Source of the DNA: Minisyncoccota bacterium
Lineage (GTDB): Bacteria > Patescibacteriota > Minisyncoccia > Phycocordibacterales > DASSSU01
Assembly (NCBI GenBank): GCA_035708305.1
Contig: DASSSU010000018.1
Coordinates: forward strand, 1 to 36,175
Direction of reading: 5' to 3'
DNA: 36,175 nt
The notes under the pieces were generated by a model. That model had not been told where the DNA came from. It did no database searches and was given only the letters and a program-made list of their open reading frames with translations. Position numbers and translations under genes: made by a program. Positions 436 to 29,160 of the stretch are shown here, piece after piece (position 1 is the first letter of the stretch; each line of letters starts with the position of its first letter).

Positions 436-2607
436 ATGCAGGATAAATTTCTAAAACCATATAACTCTAGTGAAGTTGAGCCGTCTATTTACAAACTTTG
501 GGAAAACTCTGGTTATTTTAATCCTGCTAACTTGCCCGGTGAACAAAAAGAAACCTTTACTGTCGTATTACCGCCCCCAAACGTGACAGGAGTACTCCAC
601 TTAGGCCATGCCTACGAAGACTCATTACAAGATGCGGTTATTCGCTATCAGCGCATGCGTGGCAAACGAGCTTTATGGGTTCCTGGGACAGATTCTGCCG
701 CTATTGCTACGCAAGCTCGGGTTGAGAAAAACATTCAAAAAGACGAAAGTAAAAGCAGACATGATTTGGGGCGAGCAGAATTAGTACGCCGAGTGTCAGA
801 ATTCGCTAAAAATAGCGAAGACACTATTCTAAATCAAGTGCGTCGCATGGGCGCATCACTTGATTGGAGTCGTTACGCGTATACGCTTGATGAAAAACGT
901 AATTTTGCCGTGTCAACTGCTTTTAAGCGCATGTATGATGCGGGACTTATTTATCGTGGTAATCGTATTGTGAACTGGGACCCGAAAGGTCAGACCACTA
1001 TTTCTGATGATGAGATAATTCACGAAGAACGCACCACAAAACTCTACACATTTAAATACTCGAAAGAATTTCCAATAGCAATCTCGACAACTCGTCCAGA
1101 AACCAAGGTTGGTGATACTGCCGTTGCTGTGCATCCTGACGATGAAAGATATAAAAACTTTATTGGTAAAGAATTCGACGTTGTTTTCTGTGATGTGCCG
1201 CTCCACATAAAAATTGTGGGCGATGATTCAGTAGAAAAAGAATTCGGCACTGGTGCACTTGGTGTAACTCCAGCACACAGTCAAATTGACTGGGATATTG
1301 CAGATCGCCACAACCTTGAACGACCACAAGTGATAAACGAATATGCCAAAATGATCGCTCCTGGACGCTTGAAAGATAAAAAAGTCTTAGATGCGCGAGA
1401 AGATGTTGTTACATGGCTCAAAGAACAGGGGTTGCTTGAGCAGGAAGAAGAAATTACACAAAACGTATCGACTTCTGAACGGACTGGTGCAGTTATTGAA
1501 CCGCTCCCTAAATTGCAGTGGTGGGTTGATGTGAATAAGACTTTTACTATTCCGCACTCTGAAATACCAGGAATCGCAAGTGGATCACAAACGTCTCTGA
1601 AGGAAATCATGCGGAAGAGTGTAGAAAGTGGCGCTGTCGATATGCCGCAAGAGCGATTCAAAAAAACATACTTTCATTGGATTGATAATCTGAGAGACTG
1701 GTGTATTTCTCGACAAATTTGGTTTGGCCATCGTATCCCTGTTTGGTATAAAGGCGATGAAATTTACTGTGACACTATTGCTCCAGAAGGTTCCGAGTGG
1801 AAGCAGGAAGAGGACGTGCTTGATACTTGGTTTTCTTCTGCACTCTGGACATTCTCAACGCTTGGCTGGCCAGAAAAGACGAAGGACTTAGAGACTTTTC
1901 ATCCAACTTCGTTTATGTCACCAGCATATGAAATTCTGCCACTTTGGGTCTCTCGCATGATTTTGATGAGTGGTTTTCACCTAGGGCAAGTGCCGTTTAA
2001 AACAGTAATGATTCATGGACTGGTGCGAGACAAGCAAGGCTGCAAGTTTAGTAAGTCTCTTGGAAATGGTGTTGACCCGATAGAAGTTATTGATAAATAT
2101 GGAGCGGATGCATTGCGCATGGGCTTACTTGTAGGCACTGCTATCGGCAATGATATTAAATTCGATGAAAGTAAGATTAAGGGATATAAGCATTTTGCAA
2201 ACAAAGTTTGGAATATAACAAGATTTGTTTTAGAAAATACTGAAGGTGTTGATTTCTCGCAACCAGTAACTTCTACACATAAAGATCAGGAACTAATAAA
2301 GAATCTTGAAGCTCTCATTACCGAAATAACGGAAGATTTTGATAATTACCGACTCTATCTTGCCGCTGAAAAGATTTATCATTATGTATGGCATGAAGTT
2401 GCAGACAAGATTTTAGAAGAATCAAAACCAATTCTAAATGGCAATAATAGTGACGAGAAACTATCTCGCCAACATACACTTTATACACTTCTAACAACGT
2501 CACTCAAACTGTTACATCCATTTATGCCGTTTGTAACTGAAGAAATTTGGCAATCATTGCCAGAAAAGGAAACAGATATGCTAATTGTCACAGAATGGCC
2601 ATCATAA
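436..2607 (+). CDS. valS: Valyl-tRNA synthetase, class I aaRS. HIGH motif PPPNVTGVLHLGHA, KMSKS motif KFSKSLGN, anticodon-binding domain present. It ends at ...IVTEWPS, so the usual C-terminal coiled-coil domain is absent.
   Basis: The N-terminus MQDKFLKPY..IYKLWENSGYF aligns with canonical ValRS starts. The ATG at 436 is the first start consistent with that alignment; the track ORF from 310 runs back into GC-rich non-coding sequence. 723 aa. Confidence 0.9.
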   Translation: MQDKFLKPYNSSEVEPSIYKLWENSGYFNPANLPGEQKETFTVVLPPPNVTGVLHLGHAYEDSLQDAVIRYQRMRGKRALWVPGTDSAAIATQARVEKNIQKDESKSRHDLGRAELVRRVSEFAKNSEDTILNQVRRMGASLDWSRYAYTLDEKRNFAVSTAFKRMYDAGLIYRGNRIVNWDPKGQTTISDDEIIHEERTTKLYTFKYSKEFPIAISTTRPETKVGDTAVAVHPDDERYKNFIGKEFDVVFCDVPLHIKIVGDDSVEKEFGTGALGVTPAHSQIDWDIADRHNLERPQVINEYAKMIAPGRLKDKKVLDAREDVVTWLKEQGLLEQEEEITQNVSTSERTGAVIEPLPKLQWWVDVNKTFTIPHSEIPGIASGSQTSLKEIMRKSVESGAVDMPQERFKKTYFHWIDNLRDWCISRQIWFGHRIPVWYKGDEIYCDTIAPEGSEWKQEEDVLDTWFSSALWTFSTLGWPEKTKDLETFHPTSFMSPAYEILPLWVSRMILMSGFHLGQVPFKTVMIHGLVRDKQGCKFSKSLGNGVDPIEVIDKYGADALRMGLLVGTAIGNDIKFDESKIKGYKHFANKVWNITRFVLENTEGVDFSQPVTSTHKDQELIKNLEALITEITEDFDNYRLYLAAEKIYHYVWHEVADKILEESKPILNGNNSDEKLSRQHTLYTLLTTSLKLLHPFMPFVTEEIWQSLPEKETDMLIVTEWPS

Positions 2608-2613
2608 AGTTAT

Positions 2614-4368
2614 ATGAAAGTTAAAAAAGATGAGTATATTATTGGTGTTAACGTCGGACACGATTCTGGTATCGCATTGGTGCATAATGGTGTTTTTGTT
2701 GAGGTTATTTCTGAAGAAAGATTTACACGTCAAAAGGGGCATTTAGGTTTTCCTCACAAATCTTTGGATTACATAAAAGACAAATATCACATTAATGCAT
2801 TTGACAGGGTTGTGGTTATTTCTGGCAGTGGCCGCTATAAAACGATATTTTTTGATGAGCAAAAAAATAAAAGTCTACGACAACAGCGAAAAGGAGATGT
2901 TGAGGATGTCTTTATTAAGTCTATTCTTTTTAGATACAAAATTCTCAACATTTTAAATGCTTGGAAACATGTAAAGAAAATTTTTAAGCAGTATTTTAGG
3001 GCGCGTAAAATCAATCAATTCCTTCAGAAAAAGTTCCCAAATCAAGAAGTTTTGCACCTAGATCACCATCTTGCCCATGCGTGGGGCGCATTGGCATTTG
3101 CTGATTGTTCACAGGATCAGCTAATTGTCACGCTCGACGGTGAAGGAGATGGTTTGTCAGGTTCAATTTGTGAATATAAGAACAATCAACTAAAACGACA
3201 CTCTGTCGTTTTAGCTAAAAATTCTATAGGTACGCTTTATGGCCGCGTGACTGATTACCTTGGAATGAAAAGAAATGAACACGAGTACAAAATCATGGGT
3301 CTCGCGCCTTATGCAAAGGAGGATTCGAGCCGAATTGTGCTCGATAAATTCAGAGAGATTTTATGGTTAAGCAAAAACTCACTGAATTTTGAAAGTGCAT
3401 TTGATATGCAATTTGCACATTACTATATGGTTGCAAATAACTTCGGAAACTACCGCTTTGATGCTGTTGCATGGGCGATACAGGAATTTACTGAAACTAC
3501 CGTCTTAAGGTTTGTTCAGGCTGCACTCAAAAAGCATGGAGCAATAAATCTTTCTCTTGGCGGCGGGGTATTTATGAATATAAAATTAAATCAGCGGATA
3601 CTTTCCACTTGCGATCTTCACATTTTTAACCCGGCACCATCGTGTGGCGACGACTCACTATCAATTGGCGCAGCAAAGTTTGGTTATGACAATTTTTCAG
3701 GTAAAAAAACAGCACCGATCAAACATCTCTACCTAGGGACTGAATATACAGATGTTGAGATCAAGAAACATCTAGACAAGTTAGATGCTAACCAATACAA
3801 CATAAGCCATTTCAAAGGTGAACACGAAATTGAACAAGAAGTCGCTAAACTTCTAAGTAAGAATGAAATTGTTGCTCGATTCAAGGGACGTATGGAATGG
3901 GGTGCTCGTGCTTTAGGAAATAGATCAATCTTGGCAAACCCAACTACATTTGACAATGTTCGAACTATCAACGAAGCAATTAAAAATAGAGACTTTTGGA
4001 TGCCGTTTGCTCCTAGTATGTTAGCGGAACGTGCAGATGATTATCTAATTAATCCACAAAAGTTTTTATCGCCCTTTATGGCTGTTGGATTTGAGACAAA
4101 CAGTGAGAAAGCGAACGAATTTGTTGCTGCAATACATCCTTATGACAAAACTTGTAGACCTCAGGTGGTTTCTAAAGAGGTTAATCCTGACTACCATTCA
4201 CTTATTAAGTCTTTCGAGGAATTTACGGGAGCTGGGGTGATACTGAACACTAGTTTTAATCTTCATGGGCAGCCTATAGTTGAAAACCCTGCGGACGCAC
4301 TACAGACACTTGAACAAAGTGGTTTGCGGTATTTAGCAATTGGAAACTATTTGGTTTCTAAAAAATGA
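2614..4368 (+). CDS. NodU/CmcH/TobZ-family carbamoyltransferase
   Basis: 584 aa. Hallmark motifs GVNVGHDSGIALV near the N-terminus and LHLDHHLAHAWGA (metal-binding HxxH region), plus a C-terminal YrdC/Kae1-like portion. Starts 7 nt after the valS stop. Confidence 0.85.
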   Translation: MKVKKDEYIIGVNVGHDSGIALVHNGVFVEVISEERFTRQKGHLGFPHKSLDYIKDKYHINAFDRVVVISGSGRYKTIFFDEQKNKSLRQQRKGDVEDVFIKSILFRYKILNILNAWKHVKKIFKQYFRARKINQFLQKKFPNQEVLHLDHHLAHAWGALAFADCSQDQLIVTLDGEGDGLSGSICEYKNNQLKRHSVVLAKNSIGTLYGRVTDYLGMKRNEHEYKIMGLAPYAKEDSSRIVLDKFREILWLSKNSLNFESAFDMQFAHYYMVANNFGNYRFDAVAWAIQEFTETTVLRFVQAALKKHGAINLSLGGGVFMNIKLNQRILSTCDLHIFNPAPSCGDDSLSIGAAKFGYDNFSGKKTAPIKHLYLGTEYTDVEIKKHLDKLDANQYNISHFKGEHEIEQEVAKLLSKNEIVARFKGRMEWGARALGNRSILANPTTFDNVRTINEAIKNRDFWMPFAPSMLAERADDYLINPQKFLSPFMAVGFETNSEKANEFVAAIHPYDKTCRPQVVSKEVNPDYHSLIKSFEEFTGAGVILNTSFNLHGQPIVENPADALQTLEQSGLRYLAIGNYLVSKK

Positions 4369-4967
4369 TCCGGCCGCATTTTGACAATATCAATAATTGT
4401 ACGAGTCATACGGATGTAGTTCTGATCACCAGAGTTAATCAGATATTTTGTTAAGGTACTTTCATCGAACAGCTTTTTTAAAAGACGTTGTCTTTGTATA
4501 TAAAAGTCTATGAATTTTTCTTGATCTCCGTCGGAGCGTTCCATAACATATTGTACCCACTGCACATTTCTATATTTTAGTGCATCAAGCAGGCGTCTTT
4601 TTAATGCTTCTTCTGGTATATCTATAAAAAATAGTATTGCATTATGTCGTTTCAGACTACTTTCTATGTCTGCAAAATCCTTGATGGTGGAATTGGTTTT
4701 TATTGTATGAGTAAAATGTAATCTGTCAAAAACGTAAAGGTTTTTATTTTCAGCAAATACAGTTTTAAGTAGCTTTCTTAGAAATTCCTGATTATGTTTC
4801 AGATTCGTACTGTCGATGCATGGGATTACAGTCTCTTCTTCAGGTAAAAAAGTTCCTGACAAACCATGTTCTTTCGCGTAACGTCTTAGGTTGTCAGCGA
4901 TAGTGCTTTTACCACTTGTTGTCACTCCCTCAACTATGATAGTGCGATGGAAATTTTCTATACTCAT
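4347..4967 (-). CDS. P-loop NTPase, nucleoside/nucleotide-kinase-like. Walker A GVTTSGKST and DRxH motif FDRLHFTH, dNK/thymidylate-kinase-like fold.
   Basis: 206 aa. Last gene of the minus-strand operon. Start overlaps the upstream gene by 4 nt (4964..4967). The 3' end overlaps the convergent carbamoyltransferase by 22 nt. Confidence 0.6.
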   Translation of the reverse strand: MSIENFHRTIIVEGVTTSGKSTIADNLRRYAKEHGLSGTFLPEEETVIPCIDSTNLKHNQEFLRKLLKTVFAENKNLYVFDRLHFTHTIKTNSTIKDFADIESSLKRHNAILFFIDIPEEALKRRLLDALKYRNVQWVQYVMERSDGDQEKFIDFYIQRQRLLKKLFDESTLTKYLINSGDQNYIRMTRTIIDIVKMRPDHFLETK

Positions 4968-7240
4968 ACGTATTTTTGGATATATTTTATCTCATTAAGC
5001 ATATGCATTACTCCATGAACCAGAGGAGCAGGTAAAACCTTATCAAATTTTTTTCTCGAAGATGAATGTAGCTTATGGTTTTGAACTCCAATCGATAAAT
5101 GATTTTCTATGCGTGTATCTGGTATATCAAATTCATCATCCCCTACATGAACAGAAAGTATCTGTTTCCCGTATTGCTTTTTCAGTGTTTCTAAGCCAGT
5201 AAATTTACTACCATGTAAAGGATTAACAACTACTTTTAGTTCCCGTGTATTTGTGAAGTAATAGTATAAGTTAAATATCGACCAATCAATCTCTATCATA
5301 GAATCTTTGAGGATATTAAATTTGTACCCATCCCTGATATATAATGTGCCGTCACGTTCATGGAAGATGGAGATATTTTGCCTTACGAGTAACTCTTTAA
5401 GCTCTTGGAGATTCCCCAGATATTCTTTTGGAGCTAGGATTTTCTGTTTGTCCGATGCCGTGTCGTACAATACCGCACCATTTTCTGCCAATATGTAATC
5501 GAATTTCAAGGATGCATTAATCTCTTTTGCTTGACCAATGCTATTGTTTGTATTAAGAACAGTTACAAAATTGGGATTTATGTCTTTAACATAGTGCTGA
5601 ATTTGTGTAGCTTCCATAGCTAGCGGACTATGAATAGACTCTCTTAGGGTTCCATCTAAATCAAAAGAAAGAATGATAGGATTGTTATCCTTGATAGAAC
5701 AGCGTATCTTCTCATACTCTTTACCTAAGTAGTCATAAGCTCCTAGTTCACGAAATAAATCATGTATTTGTTCCGTCTTGGCATTGATACTAATGAAGAT
5801 ATTTAACAGGGCCTCTGTTTTGTTCTCTGTTTCAGCAGAGAATTTATAAGAAGTCATGTTGTCTAAAGCTACTTCAAAATCTAATATTTGGTTTAGTGAG
5901 TCAAGTAATATCTCTTTCGTGCGAGAACTTCCAGAACCGTTGATCTGAGTAACCGCATGTTTTACTTTCTTAATGTCTGTCCTTATCTCATTGGTTCTTT
6001 TTTGTGAAATATCTTTCAAGAATTTGGCAAAATACAAGCTATTGTTTTCCGATAATTTGATTAAGCAGCTGTATATTTGTGGGTCATTATCTCTTAATAA
6101 TGCTTCCACTATATGGGAAGGACTTGCAGCATCACCATTGTTTTTTCTTCGTCTAATATGTCTCGGTCCGGTTGCAATTTTTATTGCGTTTACCCCAAAT
6201 TTACTCCTCACTTGAGCAGAGATTACCAGGTCCTGAAGAGAAAAAGGCAGGACGAGTAGATTACTTATCGCTGTTGCGCGTATACTAAATGCACCCCCGT
6301 TTATTGTGAATGTGTGAGCAGAAGTTTGATTGTTTCTGCTCCTTGTATAAAGATTTGAAATCGGTTTTCGATCAACAAAACTGCGCAAAATTGTGTCTAC
6401 TTTTTCTTCAAGTTCTTTCCTGTTTGCAATAGTAGTATTTTCCTCGTTGTCAAAAATATTGAAAGGTGTAAAACGGGATTGTGACAATGAAGTAGAGAGC
6501 ATTTGTAGTATATCAACGAAATCACGGAACATTTTGTAAGGCGATCCTGTGTGATGAGTAACCCTGCCGGAAACAACCTGACTGTTTGGAAGCGAGAATA
6601 ACAACTCTCTCTCCTTGAAAAAATCAAAATCATTAACAATATATTTTCCGTCATTTTCGTCAAGTACTGAGTAATGGATGTCATCATCATGAAAAGTACA
6701 TATTGTTTGTTCAGGCTCAAAATTGTATTTTCCTATGGTGTATTGACTCATAAGGAGCGAGTAATTGAAAGCTCCAATTGTTCCACCAATATTCTTGAAT
6801 TCTTGTGAAATAAAGGAGATAAACTCTTCTTTGGGAAAAACTCTTGGGTTTAATTTCTCAATTTGTTCAAAAATTTTATTTCGGTCGTGTATATGATAGA
6901 TGTGAACGTTGATAAATTCGGGAGCAGTTGAGTTCAAACGATTGACTAGTGCATCAAATACAGTGGCGATTTCTCCCTCTTTCGTATCGTTGATAATGTT
7001 AATGATTATTTTATCTCGTTGGACGCTATATTTTTGAACATTGTCGAAGATAGAAATAATAAGACGTTCAACCAAATATGGATAGTTACAAGCGCGGATA
7101 TTAACAATTTCATTCTTTATTTCAAAAAGAGTCCCGTATCGTTTTTTTATAAAAATCTCCACCTGCCCTAAGTCAAAAGAATTTAAGTAGATATCTCCGA
7201 ATTCATCATAATTTTGTTTTCCCATAGTTACAGGTTTCAT
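4964..7240 (-). CDS. Large two-part protein. The ~500-aa N-terminal region has unassigned function (acidic DDD/DxD-containing, possibly a glycosyltransferase-like synthase). It is fused to a C-terminal HAD-IIB (Cof/MPGP/SPP-type) phosphatase domain.
   Basis: 758 aa. HAD motifs are visible: ILSFDLDGTL (motif I DxDGT), ILAENGAVLYD, and VHVGDDEFDIPD (motif IV-like). Both start and stop overlap neighbouring genes by 4 nt (ATGA). Confidence 0.6.
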   Translation of the reverse strand: MKPVTMGKQNYDEFGDIYLNSFDLGQVEIFIKKRYGTLFEIKNEIVNIRACNYPYLVERLIISIFDNVQKYSVQRDKIIINIINDTKEGEIATVFDALVNRLNSTAPEFINVHIYHIHDRNKIFEQIEKLNPRVFPKEEFISFISQEFKNIGGTIGAFNYSLLMSQYTIGKYNFEPEQTICTFHDDDIHYSVLDENDGKYIVNDFDFFKERELLFSLPNSQVVSGRVTHHTGSPYKMFRDFVDILQMLSTSLSQSRFTPFNIFDNEENTTIANRKELEEKVDTILRSFVDRKPISNLYTRSRNNQTSAHTFTINGGAFSIRATAISNLLVLPFSLQDLVISAQVRSKFGVNAIKIATGPRHIRRRKNNGDAASPSHIVEALLRDNDPQIYSCLIKLSENNSLYFAKFLKDISQKRTNEIRTDIKKVKHAVTQINGSGSSRTKEILLDSLNQILDFEVALDNMTSYKFSAETENKTEALLNIFISINAKTEQIHDLFRELGAYDYLGKEYEKIRCSIKDNNPIILSFDLDGTLRESIHSPLAMEATQIQHYVKDINPNFVTVLNTNNSIGQAKEINASLKFDYILAENGAVLYDTASDKQKILAPKEYLGNLQELKELLVRQNISIFHERDGTLYIRDGYKFNILKDSMIEIDWSIFNLYYYFTNTRELKVVVNPLHGSKFTGLETLKKQYGKQILSVHVGDDEFDIPDTRIENHLSIGVQNHKLHSSSRKKFDKVLPAPLVHGVMHMLNEIKYIQKYV

Positions 7241-7881
7241 TGGTTAAGCATGAAATGGTTCGGCTCAAGACAATGTCCGCCAATCGGTCCCTCAACATAT
7301 TTTAAGACGTATTTCGTGAACTCAAGATGTCCGAGTTTAGTATATCCGTCATTGTATGTTTTGTTTGCGAGTGTATAGACGATATCAAAATCAAGCTCGT
7401 GTTCATCGCAGTATTGGTGGATACGTTTGTTAAGCAAAATTGCTTCGCGGTAAATTTCAGTGTCCCATAATTTCATCGCTTCGGTATTTTCCGGCTTTTC
7501 AGTCGTGACAGTTTCAACGCCAAACGCAGAGAAGTGGGCTGCCACCTCTTCAGCACGCTCACCGCCAAAGAATTTAACAAATGTTTTAATGCCTTCGGCA
7601 AGATGTGGATGTTTACCACGCACTGGCGAATGCACCGCTTCCTTACCACACTTGCTGGTTGTACCCACAGGCACAGTGGAGTGAATAACGATCACACTCG
7701 CTCCCGTATCATGTTTGTATTTTTGTACTAATTCAACAAACTGGTCTGAGTACGGAAAGCAGATATGAATAATATCTGCTTTCCGTACTTCATCATTTTT
7801 ATCAATGCCATCGCATTGCAATACTTCCGCGAGGCCAGTTCCAATTTCACCCATTCCAATCACTAAATGTTTTTTCATCAT
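7237..7881 (-). CDS. NAD(P)-binding Rossmann oxidoreductase. The N-terminal fold resembles UDP-glucose/GDP-mannose dehydrogenase (VIGMGEIG, HSTVPVGTT); a GGHCLEPN cysteine motif is present.
   Basis: 214 aa, which is short for a full UDPGDH. Starts with MM, 4 nt after the XRE gene stop. Confidence 0.5.
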   Translation of the reverse strand: MMKKHLVIGMGEIGTGLAEVLQCDGIDKNDEVRKADIIHICFPYSDQFVELVQKYKHDTGASVIVIHSTVPVGTTSKCGKEAVHSPVRGKHPHLAEGIKTFVKFFGGERAEEVAAHFSAFGVETVTTEKPENTEAMKLWDTEIYREAILLNKRIHQYCDEHELDFDIVYTLANKTYNDGYTKLGHLEFTKYVLKYVEGPIGGHCLEPNHFMLNQ

Positions 7882-7885
7882 ATAA

Positions 7886-8092
7886 TCACTTCAATAACTC
7901 ATCACTTGTAACCCCCAACGCCCCTGCCAGCCGCTCAATCGTCGCAAGGGTAGGATTACCGTTTCCCGATTCAATATTACTTACTTGTGCACGATCAAGC
8001 CTTGTCGCACGGCAAATATCGCCTTGCGACATATTCTTTTGCTCACGAATACGTTTGATATTTTTACCGAGTCGTTTTGTTGGGGTATCCAC
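7886..8092 (-). CDS. XRE-family helix-turn-helix transcriptional regulator. Probable GTG start giving ~68 aa.
   Basis: The sequence KRLGKNIKRIREQKNMSQGDICRATRLDRAQVSNIESGNGNPTLATIERLAGALGVTSDELLK is a classic HTH_XRE helix pattern. The track ORF runs back to 8326 through the inverted repeat, which is implausible. An internal ATG at 8032 would cut off helix 1, so the GTG at 8092 is preferred. Confidence 0.6.
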   Translation of the reverse strand: MDTPTKRLGKNIKRIREQKNMSQGDICRATRLDRAQVSNIESGNGNPTLATIERLAGALGVTSDELLK

Positions 8093-17398: not shown

Positions 17399-17791
17399 TT
17401 ACGCACCCGGGATAGTTGGCGTCAATTGCTGAACGTTTGTAGGAGCAGTTACAGTTGTTGCACCGCCGTTGTTTACGCCAAACGTGTCTTGTAAAATCTT
17501 TACCAATCCCCAGACAGACACAATCACAAAAAGAGCAATAATACCCCAAATCATGATTGAAATACCTTCCGATCGTGCACCGGCATCTCCTGACTTCAGG
17601 ATAAACATTGCCAATCCATAGAAGAAGAAAAGAACAGCAAGTGTGATGAGGATCGGGATAATAATGTTGATAAGGTTGCCGATAATTCCAAGGATACCTG
17701 CGAGCCCACCACTACCACCTGACGTTTGTGCAAAAGCAAATCCCGGAGTAACCGCCAAAAGCGCTAACGCTCCATACAGAATTTTTTTCAT
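17399..17791 (-). CDS. Small two-transmembrane secreted/membrane protein, paralog 2 (signal peptide MKKILYGALALLAVTPGFAFA)
   Basis: 130 aa. Conserved core ILITLAVLFFFYGLAMFILKSGDAGARSEGISIMIWGIIALFVIVSVWGLVKILQDTF. Confidence 0.65.
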   Translation of the reverse strand: MKKILYGALALLAVTPGFAFAQTSGGSGGLAGILGIIGNLINIIIPILITLAVLFFFYGLAMFILKSGDAGARSEGISIMIWGIIALFVIVSVWGLVKILQDTFGVNNGGATTVTAPTNVQQLTPTIPGA

Positions 17792-23874: not shown

Positions 23875-24372
23875 TTAATACGACGGAAGAATTTCTACAG
23901 GAGTTGTGGAAGTGGGAACCGAACTGCTTGAGGTGCCGGCGGAAAAATCAGAAGAAGTTGCCATTGTGGAAGCAGCAGACTGAAAATCTGAACCTTCCGT
24001 GGAGGAAGCAGTCGAAGATGCATTTCCATCTCCGGCTGAAGTCATCGTGTTTGTCGTAGTACTCAAACTCGTCTGCTGGTTTTTGGTAGAACTCGCTTTG
24101 AGAGTGGCATTCAAGTCTTTCAAGCCTCCAGTACTGCTTCCAAACGAACTTTTGATTCCACTCCAGAGCGCTCCCGCTGTTTCCCTCAGTGTGTCAGTCG
24201 GGGTGTTGTTTTCATAGGCGATTTTTTCTTCCGAAGGAGCAGAAAGCCGTGCCCCAAGCGTACTCGCCCAAACCCCCATGATCACGAACATGATAACGCC
24301 AGTCGTGGCGTGGAGAATCATTCTTCGCGTCTTCTCTGGCTTTGCGCGGATCTTGTCCAAAAAATCGAACAT
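23875..24372 (-). CDS. Membrane-anchored Ser/Thr-rich low-complexity protein (hypothetical)
   Basis: 165 aa. One N-terminal transmembrane helix (ILHATTGVIMFVIMGVWAS), then an S/T-rich disordered tail. Confidence 0.45.
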   Translation of the reverse strand: MFDFLDKIRAKPEKTRRMILHATTGVIMFVIMGVWASTLGARLSAPSEEKIAYENNTPTDTLRETAGALWSGIKSSFGSSTGGLKDLNATLKASSTKNQQTSLSTTTNTMTSAGDGNASSTASSTEGSDFQSAASTMATSSDFSAGTSSSSVPTSTTPVEILPSY

Positions 24373-25157: not shown

Positions 25158-28100
25158 CTACAAAGACGAATTCAAAGGAGCCGTTTCGCCCTTGGCGGAT
25201 ACGTCAGATGGGTCCGTTTGGTCTGAGTTTCCACTTTGCAGCGTTTCGGTGTCTTTTTGGGTTGTGGTTGTTTGATCCAGCGAGATCGTGGTATCTGGAA
25301 CAGTGGCGTTCGTCACTATATTTTCATCAGTACCAGAACCAGTATCAACATCGGACGGTTTGTTTTCCGTGCTTTCTTCCGTCAAATCATCACCTCCACT
25401 TGCAGCTTTTATTTCCGCGTCACTCGAACTTGCCGCTGTCTCTGATTTTTCTGAATCGCCATCTGGTGTCGTCGTGGCAAGTGTTTTTGAAGTTTGAGAA
25501 GCTTCGGAAGTCTGAGAAGCCACTGAGGTTTGGCTTACATGGGCGTTTTCCAGAAGTATTTTAAGCTGACTTTCATTCACACAGGTATCCCCCACACAAA
25601 GCTCATCCTTCACGTGTACATCATCGGCAAAAATACTCTTGAAGTACCCCACCACAGCTTTCATCGAATCCGTCACGAATGAAGCCGTGCGGGCAAAGAA
25701 GTTTTGGTTCTCCTTGTTCGCACTTGTTACCAGTGCATCCGCTTCCGCCTCTGAAAGATGAACAGACGGAACCCACGAAACATGTACAAACATCATCACC
25801 GTGTCCGTGCCGTTGGAATCTTCAAGGGCAGTTCCCAGGATGGTACCGGTGGAGGTAGCTTTCACGGCGATGCCGGGGGTGGTGGAAGAGAGGGTGAGGA
25901 GATCACCGGGCTTTACCTCGCCGTTGGTGTTTGAGAACTTCACCGGAACACGGCCAGAGAGAGCAACCGGGCGAGTGCTCGTACCGGTTTCATCACCCAA
26001 GAGAACTCCAGGAGCGGTAGAGACAATTCCCAGGATTCTCTGTGCTTCTTCGCTTCCTGCCTTTACGAGTTTTCCGTCCTGGTCAATTGCTACCACATCG
26101 CCTGCTTCAAGAGAGTGATCATTGACAGGATAATTTTCCGCCAAGTCTGAGGCCGTGAAACTTGAAGAGTCGCCGTAGACCACGCCCGCGGTGAGAGTGC
26201 CCTGGCATTTTGTGCCGCCGCCATTATCCGCACAGATGGCGCCGTTTGCTGCGGCGATGTTACCACTCGCGACAGTGAGTTTGGCGAAAGGAGTAGTGGT
26301 TCCGATGCCGATATTGCCGGTTACCTGCAAATTTCCTGGAGTTGTTCCATCAAAACTCCCAGCAATCTGAAAGGTATTTGCCGAGCTTCTTGAAAGAAAG
26401 ATGTCGCGAGTGCTATTTCCGGATCCAACGCCAAAAGCACCATTTGAGTAGAAAATAGCTCGATCATAACTTTCTGTCGGAACACCCACAGAAAATGCTC
26501 GCCCACTGCCGGCAGAGTTTGCCAGATCAGCCTGAAATTCGGCAGTGTTATCGGACGCAACCACCTTCAACTGAGTATTTGGGTTTGAGAGAGTGTCTGG
26601 TGTCGTCCCTATCCCCACCTTGCCAGTGATATAGGCTTGTCCATTCACCACAAGTGGATAAGCCGGAGTAGTAGTCCCGGTATCAATGCCGATATTACCG
26701 GTAGAGAGATCACCGTAAATCGTATTGCCGATATTCAACTGATAGTTCGCTGTCGGATCAGCCGCGTTGGTTTCCGAACCGATGAAAATGTTGTTTGACC
26801 CGGTCGTAATGTTGTAGCCGGCCTTGTAACCCATCGCGACATTTTTTGTGGCTGCGTTTATAGCATTGTAAAGCGCGCTTGAGCCAAAAGCAGAATTGTA
26901 ACTTCCCCACGTGTTGTTGAGCAGCGCTTCATATCCCAAACCGGTGTTCTCCACACCATCCGTCGTGTGCCCAAGCGCGTAACTCCCCAAAGCAAGATTG
27001 GCAGTTCCGTCAGTGCTGTTGGTAAGCGCGCCGGTACCGAGTGCAACGTTGTCATTCCCCGTGATATTGCTCTGGAGCGCGCCGGTACCGAGTGCCAAGT
27101 TGGTGGCACCGGTGGTGTTGTCGTGAAGCGCACTGGTTCCAATAGCAACGTTTTCATTGCCGGTCGTTACAGAAGAAAGCGCACCAATCCCCATTCCAAG
27201 GTTACTTTGTCCGTCACTTCCCGTCATGTGCGACAGACTTTCGCCACCACCGCCGATAAAAAGCGAACCATAAAAAGATGCTTGATCCGGAACATAGAGT
27301 GCGTCCTGACCTCCTATCGCAAGAACTTCTGTAGAGGATGCGAGATTTAAATTTCCATCGATCGTGAGGCCACCCGAAATATTTACCGGAGAATTAAAAT
27401 AGGAAGCAGAACTGGTACCAGTATCAAATCGAAGATTTCCGGTACTCTCCAACCAAAGCTGTCCTGAAGCAGTATAAATCTGCTGATCCTGATTCCATGC
27501 GTCATTCCCATTCCCGAAAGAAAGTCCTCCGCGAACAAACGGATCAACAAGATCTGATTGATATCCGAGATGTGAAGTGCCAGAAACTTGAACCGTTGTT
27601 CCGTTAGAAAGCTCATATTTTCCATCAACGCCATAGCTTCCCACCATGTAACTCGTCAAAGCACCGGTATCAAAGCCGGTCACCAACACGTCCGAAGAAT
27701 TATCCGAATCTACCGTAACATTCGATGCACTGATAAGTGGAGCCTGACCGGTGGACATGTCTAACTTAATACCATGACTGTTCTCCGCCTGAATCCAGGT
27801 ATTCGCGAAGTTAGGAGTTGCGCTGTCCACTTCAAGTGCGTATCCGTTTGTGGCGGGACCAGAAATATTCACATTCGTAAAATAGTTTGCCGCGGTATAA
27901 CTTCCGCTTACCGGATAATAAATCCCGACAGCAACACCATTTGTCGAAACAGTATTTGCTTCCACCACCAATCCGCTGAAAAAGTTGTACGCCACTGGCT
28001 GGCTCGTTCCCGCTTCAAGACGAAGGCCGTAATCCAAGAAATCACGTATGTCGATATTATTATAAAAATCACGATACGCACCACCGGCAAGATAAAGACC

Positions 28101-29051
28101 GGTCGATCCTGTTCCATTCGGGCCGCTCCCCTCCATGCCTATATTTTCCAAACGGAAATTTACCACCAGTCCTGTGTCATTTCCCACTTGGATAACCGGC
28201 TTGGAAGTGTCGTATGGAACAAGCTTGTTTGGTGTGTTGTACTCCCCGGAAGATTCTCCCAAGATGTGGATGTTGTCCTGTGTAATCACCAAGTTAACGG
28301 CCCATTCACCGTTTGGAACGTAGATCGTGCCGCCGGCAGTTCCGAGTGATGCAATCGCGGCATTGAAGGCGGCCGTATCATCTGTGGTGCCGTCACCTTT
28401 CGCACCGAACGCCCGCACGTCCACCCACGGACCCTTGGTGATCAGATCATCCGCCGTTACCGTGCCGGTAATTTCCGCATTACCACCCACCGTAAGCCTT
28501 TGCGATGGAGTGGAAGTGCCAATTCCAACATTGCCGGCTGTATACGAAATGTTTGAACCCGAGACTACCCAAGGAGATGAACTTGAAGAACTGTCACTCG
28601 ACGGCGAAAGTGAGGCTGACGCAACCTGATTGGTCACGGAGTTTCCACTTGCAACCGTGCTCATGTTGGAATCACTCTGAAGTGCAATGAGCGTGCGAAG
28701 GCGATTTTCGGAGGCGAGGAGGTCGGATTGCGAAACACCATGATCGACACTGACACCCCAAGAAGCATTTTGATTCGCAAGCTGTGGGAGTGCTTCAGAA
28801 ATGGAAAGCAAAATCCCATTCAGTGCACTGACCAAAATGGATGTAGAGTGTGCAAGAGCATTCAAGCGGGCTTCAAGATCTTGCTCTTGAATGCTTTGAC
28901 CAGACGCCGAAGACATGGTGGAGTTAGCATTTTCGGGGGCGGAAGCAAAGGCAGCACCGGGGAAAAGAAAAGCAAGCACCAAAATCGCCAAAACCCCTTG
29001 TGTGGATACAAAGAAGAGAAAAGCTTTTTGTGCTCGTTTAATAAACCACAT
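25158..29051 (-). CDS. Giant secreted/surface protein. It has a signal peptide, a pectate-lyase-3/tailspike-like right-handed beta-helix domain, and many YadA-head/tail-fibre-like NxAxGxxAL repeats. It ends in a conserved C-terminal domain and an acidic S/T/D-rich tail.
   Basis: 1297 aa. VDVRAFGAKGDGTTDDTAAFNAAIASLGTAGGTIYVPNGEW is the Pectate_lyase_3 signature. Repeats NVAIGTSALHDNTTGATNLALGTGALQSNITGNDNVALGTGAL.... Confidence 0.75.
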   Translation of the reverse strand: MWFIKRAQKAFLFFVSTQGVLAILVLAFLFPGAAFASAPENANSTMSSASGQSIQEQDLEARLNALAHSTSILVSALNGILLSISEALPQLANQNASWGVSVDHGVSQSDLLASENRLRTLIALQSDSNMSTVASGNSVTNQVASASLSPSSDSSSSSSPWVVSGSNISYTAGNVGIGTSTPSQRLTVGGNAEITGTVTADDLITKGPWVDVRAFGAKGDGTTDDTAAFNAAIASLGTAGGTIYVPNGEWAVNLVITQDNIHILGESSGEYNTPNKLVPYDTSKPVIQVGNDTGLVVNFRLENIGMEGSGPNGTGSTGLYLAGGAYRDFYNNIDIRDFLDYGLRLEAGTSQPVAYNFFSGLVVEANTVSTNGVAVGIYYPVSGSYTAANYFTNVNISGPATNGYALEVDSATPNFANTWIQAENSHGIKLDMSTGQAPLISASNVTVDSDNSSDVLVTGFDTGALTSYMVGSYGVDGKYELSNGTTVQVSGTSHLGYQSDLVDPFVRGGLSFGNGNDAWNQDQQIYTASGQLWLESTGNLRFDTGTSSASYFNSPVNISGGLTIDGNLNLASSTEVLAIGGQDALYVPDQASFYGSLFIGGGGESLSHMTGSDGQSNLGMGIGALSSVTTGNENVAIGTSALHDNTTGATNLALGTGALQSNITGNDNVALGTGALTNSTDGTANLALGSYALGHTTDGVENTGLGYEALLNNTWGSYNSAFGSSALYNAINAATKNVAMGYKAGYNITTGSNNIFIGSETNAADPTANYQLNIGNTIYGDLSTGNIGIDTGTTTPAYPLVVNGQAYITGKVGIGTTPDTLSNPNTQLKVVASDNTAEFQADLANSAGSGRAFSVGVPTESYDRAIFYSNGAFGVGSGNSTRDIFLSRSSANTFQIAGSFDGTTPGNLQVTGNIGIGTTTPFAKLTVASGNIAAANGAICADNGGGTKCQGTLTAGVVYGDSSSFTASDLAENYPVNDHSLEAGDVVAIDQDGKLVKAGSEEAQRILGIVSTAPGVLLGDETGTSTRPVALSGRVPVKFSNTNGEVKPGDLLTLSSTTPGIAVKATSTGTILGTALEDSNGTDTVMMFVHVSWVPSVHLSEAEADALVTSANKENQNFFARTASFVTDSMKAVVGYFKSIFADDVHVKDELCVGDTCVNESQLKILLENAHVSQTSVASQTSEASQTSKTLATTTPDGDSEKSETAASSSDAEIKAASGGDDLTEESTENKPSDVDTGSGTDENIVTNATVPDTTISLDQTTTTQKDTETLQSGNSDQTDPSDVSAKGETAPLNSSL

Positions 29052-29160
29052 ACTATATTATTCTTCACTGAAGTGTTTAATCGTCTTTAAGTATAACAAG
29101 AGAGGTATGGGAAAGGAACGCTTACAGTGGATAACTTCCTTACTTTATTCCCCGCCCTCC

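What the first reader, a model, noticed from the sequence alone, without database searches (positions are those of the whole stretch)
25158..29051. 1297-aa surface protein combining a tailspike-like beta-helix with YadA-head-like repeats
A signal peptide is followed by a Pectate_lyase_3/tailspike-type beta-helix (VDVRAFGAKGDGTTDDTAAFNAAI...). After that come more than 20 NxAxGxxAL repeats of the kind seen in trimeric autotransporter heads and phage tail fibres, then a compact C-terminal domain and an acidic disordered tail. Giant fibre or adhesin proteins like this are candidates for host attachment or polysaccharide degradation in episymbiotic reduced-genome bacteria.
Basis: partly seen in the sequence, partly recalled or inferred. 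Interest (0 to 1): 0.55.

Follow-up and report, generated by a model that had tools for sequence, protein, structure and literature searches.

The report
Phage-tailspike-like surface fibre of a Paceibacterium

The parts
25158..29051 (-). Whole gene, 1297 codons plus stop
   Evidence: ORF list; identical protein P0001 in NCBI
28944..29051 (-). aa 1-36: Sec-type signal peptide or signal anchor (MWFIKRAQKA + hydrophobic core + AFA|S)
   Evidence: The only hydrophobic 19-mer windows in the protein are at aa 8-40. Sequence read. Whether it is cleaved is inferred, not tested.
28572..28943 (-). aa 37-160: Ser/Ala/Leu-rich linker or putative helical stalk
   Evidence: Composition; no family hit; not modelled
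28434..28571 (-). aa 161-206: first 'NVGIGTSTP..L.V.G' fibre motif preceding the helix. It recurs at aa 786, 811 and 913.
   Evidence: Motif search. The same motif is in the same place in P0174 and P0013.
27576..28433 (-). aa 207-492: right-handed parallel beta-helix. The N-cap (aa 209-269) is the PF12708 signature.
   Evidence: Pfam; AF2 pLDDT above 90; Foldseek PDB hits to tailspikes, epimerases and lyases; family of 74 representatives at E<=1e-30
27684..27722 (-). aa 444-456, NVTVDSDNSSDVL: the most conserved motif of the helix body. It contains the invariant acidic D448 and D454. Candidate functional site together with D409, W419, Q421 and D476.
   Evidence: 71-sequence alignment A3: D448 acidic in 71/71, D454 in 52/69, W419 aromatic in 69/71. 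Placement on adjacent coils is inferred from the strand register.
27228..27575 (-). aa 493-608: region after the helix, low-confidence as a monomer
   Evidence: pLDDT below 50
26727..27227 (-). aa 609-775: 8 (to about 10) repeats of 17 residues (N-x-A-h-G-x-x-A-L-x-x-N-T-T-G-x-x) forming a beta-solenoid
   Evidence: Regex and spacing; shuffles; 51-nt DNA period; AF2 pLDDT 75-95 with short strands every 17 aa; PHROGs virion and tail-spike families
26148..26726 (-). aa 776-968: distal shaft with three NxGIGT motifs and a Cys940-x8-Cys949 loop. It ends at the predicted cleavage site S968.
   Evidence: Motifs; cysteines; the same tip sequence occurs in CPR loci L002 and L005; low pLDDT as a monomer
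25764..26147 (-). aa 969-1096: phi29-gp12-type (Peptidase G2-like) intramolecular chaperone domain. The D969-L-A-E972 motif lies at 26136-26147.
25542..25763 (-). aa 1097-1170: two helices, then a Cys1152-x4-Cys1157 beta-hairpin plus helix (ELCVGDTCVNESQLKILLE)
   Evidence: AF2 secondary structure, pLDDT 75-85 for the hairpin and helix. The same motif follows S74 domains in P0018, P0037 and P0174 and the G2-like domain in P0038.
25161..25541 (-). aa 1171-1297: acidic, Ser/Thr-rich low-complexity tail
   Evidence: 24 D/E against 6 K/R, 36% S/T

Best explanation
The gene encodes a Sec-exported cell-surface fibre of a Paceibacterota (CPR) bacterium. The fibre is built like a phage tailspike and is probably trimeric. 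After export it stays attached through its N-terminal hydrophobic segment or is released by signal peptidase. A Ser-rich stalk carries a right-handed beta-helix (aa 207-492) that binds a surface polysaccharide or teichoic-acid-like polymer of a partner cell and possibly cuts it. A 17-residue-repeat beta-solenoid and NxGIGT segments form the distal shaft. The C-terminal domain (aa 969-1096) is a phi29-gp12-type intramolecular chaperone. It would nucleate trimerisation of the shaft and then cut its own chain between S968 and D969, using D969 and E972. That would detach the last 329 residues: the domain, the Cys-hairpin and the acidic tail.

Shown here: the ORF, the folds of three modules, homology of the C-terminal domain to gp12 with catalytic-site residues conserved, the chromosomal context, and the wide distribution of the modules.

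Inferred: trimer state, cleavage, ligand, enzymatic activity and role in host attachment.
For: The ORF and its exact NCBI match come. There is one N-terminal hydrophobic segment and two closely spaced Cys pairs, which fits an extracytoplasmic protein.

The beta-helix is predicted at pLDDT above 90. Foldseek finds tailspikes, epimerases, lyases and phi29 gp12. The closest word-search relative, P0002 (45% identity), lies in a phage tail module next to a T7-like tail-fibre N-domain protein.

In viral contigs the domain ends the protein, as an intramolecular chaperone should. P0174, in another genome between ftsH and recG, has the same signal peptide, NxGIGT motif and beta-helix (47% identity). 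It carries a Peptidase_S74 chaperone in the same slot, followed by the same Cys-hairpin and tail. The gp12 chaperone domain is absent from mature virions, and gp12 digests wall teichoic acid (PMC9863714).

The neighbouring genes are gyrA, an MBL-fold hydrolase, an S1 protein, RNase R, SecA and MurB.
Against: The Pfam Peptidase_G2 score is below the gathering cut-off (17-21.6 bits against 25). The domain is not at the C-terminus here: 201 more residues follow it, and long extensions are the rule in CPR. This is odd for a disposable chaperone. Some CPR proteins have two tandem copies or copies without D-x-A-E (P0015), so the fold can also be a permanent structural module. It is also the fold of phage cement and decoration proteins. 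Release of the gp12 fragment needs ATP (my recollection of Xiang et al. 2009, a paper not held here), and ATP is not available outside the cell.

The helix body has only one invariant acidic residue, and no solved enzyme aligns beyond the N-cap. A non-enzymatic beta-helix adhesin, PfbA, matches the cap equally well. No full-length orthologue exists among 5.8 billion proteins. There are no expression data.
Confidence: 0.55

Rival explanations
1. A non-enzymatic adhesin whose C-terminal domain is a permanent trimeric knob. The beta-helix is only a binding scaffold. The G2-like or cement-like domain is not cleaved and, with the Cys-hairpin and acidic tail, forms the distal end of the fibre.
For: The helix body has only one invariant acidic residue. 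The PfbA adhesin matches the same N-cap. The fold is shared with stable trimeric phage cement and decoration proteins. CPR copies always carry a long extension. Tandem copies and copies lacking D-x-A-E exist.
Against: This protein keeps D969, A971 and E972, which are invariant across the family and align with the gp12 cleavage and catalytic residues. An S74 self-cleaving chaperone occupies the same slot in P0174. D448, D454, W419 and D409 are conserved across a family that includes phage fibres.
Confidence: 0.25
2. A secreted, free polysaccharide depolymerase used for nutrient scavenging or matrix remodelling rather than attachment. The signal peptide is cleaved and the trimer diffuses away.
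For: There is an AFA|S signal-peptidase-like site. Shorter family members (P0173, P0175, P0176) are just a signal peptide plus the helix. Structural neighbours include lyases, epimerases and glycosidases.
Against: About 480 residues of fibre shaft and a chaperone module are typical of receptor-binding fibres, not of soluble enzymes. No catalytic motif of any characterised family is present.
Confidence: 0.12
3. A phage or prophage tail-fibre gene, with the contig being viral or carrying a prophage remnant.
For: All three main modules have phage counterparts.
Against: The protein has an N-terminal signal or anchor segment instead of a virion-attachment domain. Both flanks and the whole 36-kb contig hold housekeeping genes and no phage structural genes. 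GC content matches the neighbours. The analogous P0174 is also chromosomal.
Confidence: 0.04

Closest known systems
Bacillus phage phi29 pre-neck appendage (tailspike) protein gp12 (PDB 3GQ7-3GQH, 3SUC, 6QZ9; MEROPS/Pfam Peptidase_G2)
   Different: gp12 has an N-terminal virion-attachment domain, while this protein has a signal or anchor segment. Here a 17-residue-repeat solenoid and NxGIGT shaft (about 480 aa) lie between the helix and the chaperone. Here the chaperone is followed by 201 more residues. The helix bodies are not alignable by sequence beyond the cap. This gene is cellular.
Geobacillus virus E2 ORF18 (PDB 7CHU) and other phage tailspike depolymerases (Dettilon, Fri1 gp49, phiAB6, CBA120 TSP2, Sf6)
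   Different: Identity is 10-17%. No shared catalytic residues can be named. The phage proteins are virion-bound.
Endosialidase-type tail fibres and spikes with a Peptidase_S74 C-terminal intramolecular chaperone
   Same: The logic is the same: fibre plus self-cleaving C-terminal chaperone. Many relatives of the helix and repeat modules end in S74. P0174 has S74 in the slot occupied here by the G2-like domain.
   Different: S74 is a different domain family, and this protein has no S74 hit.
Trimeric autotransporter adhesin heads (YadA, UspA1, BadA)
   Same: They have Gly/Ala/Asn-rich short repeats predicted to form a beta-solenoid in a surface fibre.
PfbA of Streptococcus pneumoniae (PDB 3ZPP/4MR0), a beta-helix surface adhesin
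   Same: It is a cell-surface beta-helix with the same N-cap motif and an adhesin function without known enzymatic activity.
   Different: PfbA is an LPXTG-anchored monomer and has no fibre shaft or chaperone domain.

Membership tests
Pfam PF12708 Pect-lyase_RHGA_epim (beta-helix N-cap) | Score above the Pfam gathering cut-off | tested here: met
   47.6 bits against 27, aa 209-269 only
Right-handed parallel beta-helix (pectin-lyase-like fold) | Predicted or observed three-sheet beta-helix | tested here: met
   AF2 pLDDT above 90 for aa 207-492; 78 PDB Foldseek hits at E<=1e-3, all beta-helix proteins
Glycoside hydrolase family 28 (the NCBI name of this protein) | Alignment over the catalytic coils carrying the NTD / DD / GHG / RIK motifs (motifs recalled from my own knowledge) | tested here: not met
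   NCBIfam GH28-type equivalogs score 21-32 bits against cut-offs of 500-800 and match only aa 212-310. PDB GH28 chains align only to the cap.
Peptidase_G2 / phi29 gp12 autochaperone | Pfam PF11962 gathering score | tested here: not met
   17.0 to 21.6 bits against 25. 7 of 26 relatives hit it weakly.
Peptidase_G2 / phi29 gp12 autochaperone | Homology detectable by profile methods | tested here: met
   hmmsearch against 6qz9 gives E 1.9e-4. hhalign gives probability 95.5%, E 1.6e-8.
Peptidase_G2 / phi29 gp12 autochaperone | Same fold as the released C-terminal fragment | tested here: met
Peptidase_G2 / phi29 gp12 autochaperone | Asp at P1' and the Glu three residues later at the cleavage site | tested here: met
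   S968|D969-L-A-E972 aligns with S691|D692-F-A-E695. 3gqh starts at that Asp, and 3suc has Gln at the Glu position. The motif is invariant in the family.
Peptidase_G2 / phi29 gp12 autochaperone | Domain forms the extreme C-terminus | tested here: not met
   201 residues follow it here. The median distance from motif to stop is 376 aa in CPR loci against 63 aa in viral loci.
Peptidase_G2 / phi29 gp12 autochaperone | Actual autocleavage after trimerisation, with ATP-dependent release | not testable with these tools
   Needs protein biochemistry or proteomics
YadA-like head / trimeric autotransporter adhesin | Pfam YadA_head (PF05658) repeats with a period of about 14 residues | tested here: not met
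   No hit at E<=10 on the isolated region. The period is 17. No PDB sequence hit with the sequence or the profile.
YadA-like head / trimeric autotransporter adhesin | C-terminal YadA-type beta-barrel membrane anchor | tested here: not met
   No such Pfam hit. The C-terminus is a hydrophilic acidic tail.
Phage tailspike / tail fibre (virion protein) | Phage genomic context and an N-terminal virion-attachment domain | tested here: not met
   The neighbours are housekeeping genes. The N-terminus is a signal or anchor segment.
Sec-exported protein | Positively charged n-region, hydrophobic h-region and an A-x-A site | tested here: inconclusive
   The features are present on inspection. No dedicated predictor was available. 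The long h-region leaves open whether it is a cleaved signal peptide or a signal anchor.

The most novel reading that the evidence does not exclude
Patescibacteria have taken over the phage receptor-binding toolkit wholesale: tailspike beta-helices, fibre repeats, and both the S74 and G2 types of self-cleaving chaperone. They use it to build Sec-exported host-attachment fibres. They have also added a lineage-specific module after the chaperone, a Cys-hairpin plus a long low-complexity tail. This module may keep the cleaved chaperone on the fibre or give it a second function, since extracellular release cannot use ATP. This protein would be one combinatorial product of a very large, unnamed family of CPR surface proteins, with at least 590 loci in species-representative genomes.
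Probability: 0.35. Interest if true: 0.65.

Novelty: new variant of a known kind. Interest (0 to 1): 0.5.

Why it matters
Cultivated Patescibacteria live attached to other microbes, and genetic work shows that their growth needs several adhesins (PMC10633639). Most of their large surface proteins have no annotation. This analysis gives one such protein a testable molecular model: a trimeric tailspike-like fibre, a named cleavage site and a named candidate functional residue. It also shows that its unannotated C-terminal domain is a phi29-gp12-type chaperone that recurs in hundreds of CPR genomes and in phages. Of the 120 listed relatives, 113 have no precomputed Pfam family. That could improve annotation of a large slice of CPR 'dark' proteins. 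It also points to module sharing between CPR surface fibres and phage receptor-binding proteins.

Tried and rejected
- Single-sequence PDB searches of the C-terminal region and of the repeat region gave only noise. The C-terminal relation appeared only with a family profile.
- A profile of the repeats against PDB gave nothing, so YadA membership was dropped.
- The beta-helix family profile against PDB aligned only the N-cap, plus the first coils of 7chu. Catalytic residues could therefore not be transferred from GH28, GH55, AlgE, RbmB or gp12.
- tRNA and Rfam scans of the window were empty.
- The promoter and terminator scan was at or below chance and was not used.
- The primary phi29 gp12 paper (Xiang et al. 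2009, PMC2692858) is not held. The cleavage site was therefore taken from the PDB chain boundaries and from a review.
- Literature searches found no description of this CPR protein class.
- The prophage idea was rejected on context.
- Model coordinates are not exposed. 3D clustering of D409, Q421, D448, D454 and D476 could only be inferred from the strand register.
Full report
**Observation.** The window holds an uninterrupted ATG-started ORF of 1297 codons at 25158..29051 on the minus strand. Its product is identical to an NCBI protein named 'glycosyl hydrolase family 28-related protein' from a Candidatus Paceibacterota MAG. That protein's contig has the length of this window. The only hydrophobic stretch in the protein is aa 8-40. 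It is preceded by K5, R6 and K9 and followed by AFA|S. The protein has four cysteines in two close pairs, C940/C949 and C1152/C1157. Both features fit an exported protein. The tail, aa 1171-1297, has 24 acidic and 6 basic residues and is 36% Ser/Thr. The strict motif occurs 5 times and a relaxed one 8 times, at aa 617-745, in a 17-residue register. Shuffled sequences give about 0.01. Tandem Repeats Finder also sees the 51-nt period.

**Context.** The gene is flanked by an MBL-fold hydrolase, a small membrane-anchored S/T-rich ORF and gyrA on one side. A divergent S1-domain protein, an S9 peptidase and RNase R lie on the other side. SecA, MurB, a class-I tRNA synthetase and a solute-binding protein lie further away. 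There are no phage structural genes, tRNAs or Rfam hits. GC content matches the neighbours. This is a chromosomal gene of a CPR bacterium.

**Beta-helix.** Pfam sees only the N-cap: PF12708 at aa 209-269, 47.6 bits. AlphaFold2 with a 22-sequence alignment predicts a right-handed beta-helix for aa 207-492 at pLDDT above 90. The top Foldseek hits are Geobacillus virus E2 ORF18, AlgE4/AlgE6 epimerases, the RbmB lyase, many phage tailspikes and phi29 gp12. A full HMMER scan of 1.84 billion representatives finds 4492 relatives at E<=1e-3, and 74 at E<=1e-30 that cover the whole helix. In a 71-sequence alignment, D448 is acidic in 71/71. Other conserved positions are W419 (aromatic 69/71), Q421 (Q/E/D 65/71), D454 (52/69), D476 and D292 (52/71 each) and D409 (48/71). 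The best-conserved motif is NVxxDSxxSxDVL at aa 444-456. From the strand register of the model, N303/N332/N393/N417/N444 form a classical Asn ladder. The conserved acids sit at the ends of strands and in turns of three or four successive coils. NCBIfam GH28-type models score far below their cut-offs. Membership in GH28 is therefore not supported. The domain could be an enzyme of unknown specificity or a binding scaffold like PfbA, which matches the same cap. Close family members include signal-peptide proteins (P0173-P0176). Another is a phage tail fibre, P0002, whose contig carries a T7-like tail-fibre N-domain protein.

**Distribution.** A degenerate-pattern scan found at least 590 confirmed loci in species-representative genomes. 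The best 80 are almost all Patescibacteria by title. At least 465 loci were found in IMG/VR viral contigs, at lower identity. D-x-A-E is kept in 78/80 and 80/80 of these loci. In viral loci the protein ends 61-63 residues after the GRVPVK motif. In CPR loci a median of 376 residues follow it. These extensions contain Cys-pair modules and low-complexity tails. In this protein the extension is two helices, a Cys1152-x4-Cys1157 hairpin plus helix (pLDDT 75-85) and the acidic tail. The same hairpin follows S74 chaperones in P0018, P0037 and P0174. P0174 lies between ftsH and recG in another genome. It has a signal peptide, an NxGIGT motif, the same beta-helix (47% identity), S74, the hairpin and a tail. 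Two unrelated self-cleaving chaperone types thus occupy one slot in otherwise parallel architectures. This independently supports the functional reading.

**Caveats.** The Pfam G2 score is sub-threshold. The extension after the chaperone, tandem copies (L006, L014) and copies lacking D-x-A-E (P0015) show that the fold can be a permanent module. No full-length orthologue exists; the best is 45% identity over 29% of the length. There are no expression data.

**Verdict.** The protein is best described as a cellular, exported, tailspike-like fibre with a phi29-type autochaperone. It is a new variant of a known kind, of moderate interest.

Noticed in passing
window 17399-17791 (-): A 130-aa ORF matches Pfam T4SS_pilin (PF18895, E 3.2e-7). 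It may be part of the Patescibacteria type IV secretion apparatus.
   Followed up: no
window about 2000-7900: This stretch has low GC (0.34-0.40 against about 0.48). It holds a carbamoyltransferase, a 206-aa P-loop protein with a weak PADLOC VakA hit (E 3.6e-6), and 758-aa and 214-aa ORFs with no Pfam or PADLOC family. It may be an acquired island.
   Followed up: partly
window 23875-24372 (-): A 165-aa ORF has one membrane segment and a Ser/Thr-rich tail and no Pfam family. It is on the same strand as the fibre gene, downstream of it, between the MBL-fold gene and gyrA.
   Followed up: no
L001-L080 versus L081-L160: In CPR genomes the G2-like domain is always followed by a long extension (median 376 aa from motif to stop). 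In viral contigs the protein ends 61-63 aa after the motif in 80/80 loci.
   Followed up: partly
L006, L014; protein P0015: Some CPR proteins carry two tandem copies of the G2-like domain. P0015 has two copies that lack the D-x-A-E motif, which suggests non-cleaving structural use of the fold.
   Followed up: no
L164 6001-8739 (P0174, GCA_009712145.1): This chromosomal protein lies between ftsH and recG and has a parallel architecture. It carries a Peptidase_S74 chaperone where the window protein has the G2-like one, followed by the same LCVGxTC..QL hairpin.
   Followed up: partly
L161 1-13935: The contig of P0002, the closest beta-helix relative found by word search, looks like a phage tail module. 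It has a 1312-aa protein, a T7-like tail-fibre N-domain protein, then P0002 with S74.
   Followed up: partly
window 29052-29079 (-): A weak -10-like TATAGT abuts the ATG and no Shine-Dalgarno sequence is evident. The mRNA may be leaderless. The promoter scan was not above chance.
   Followed up: no
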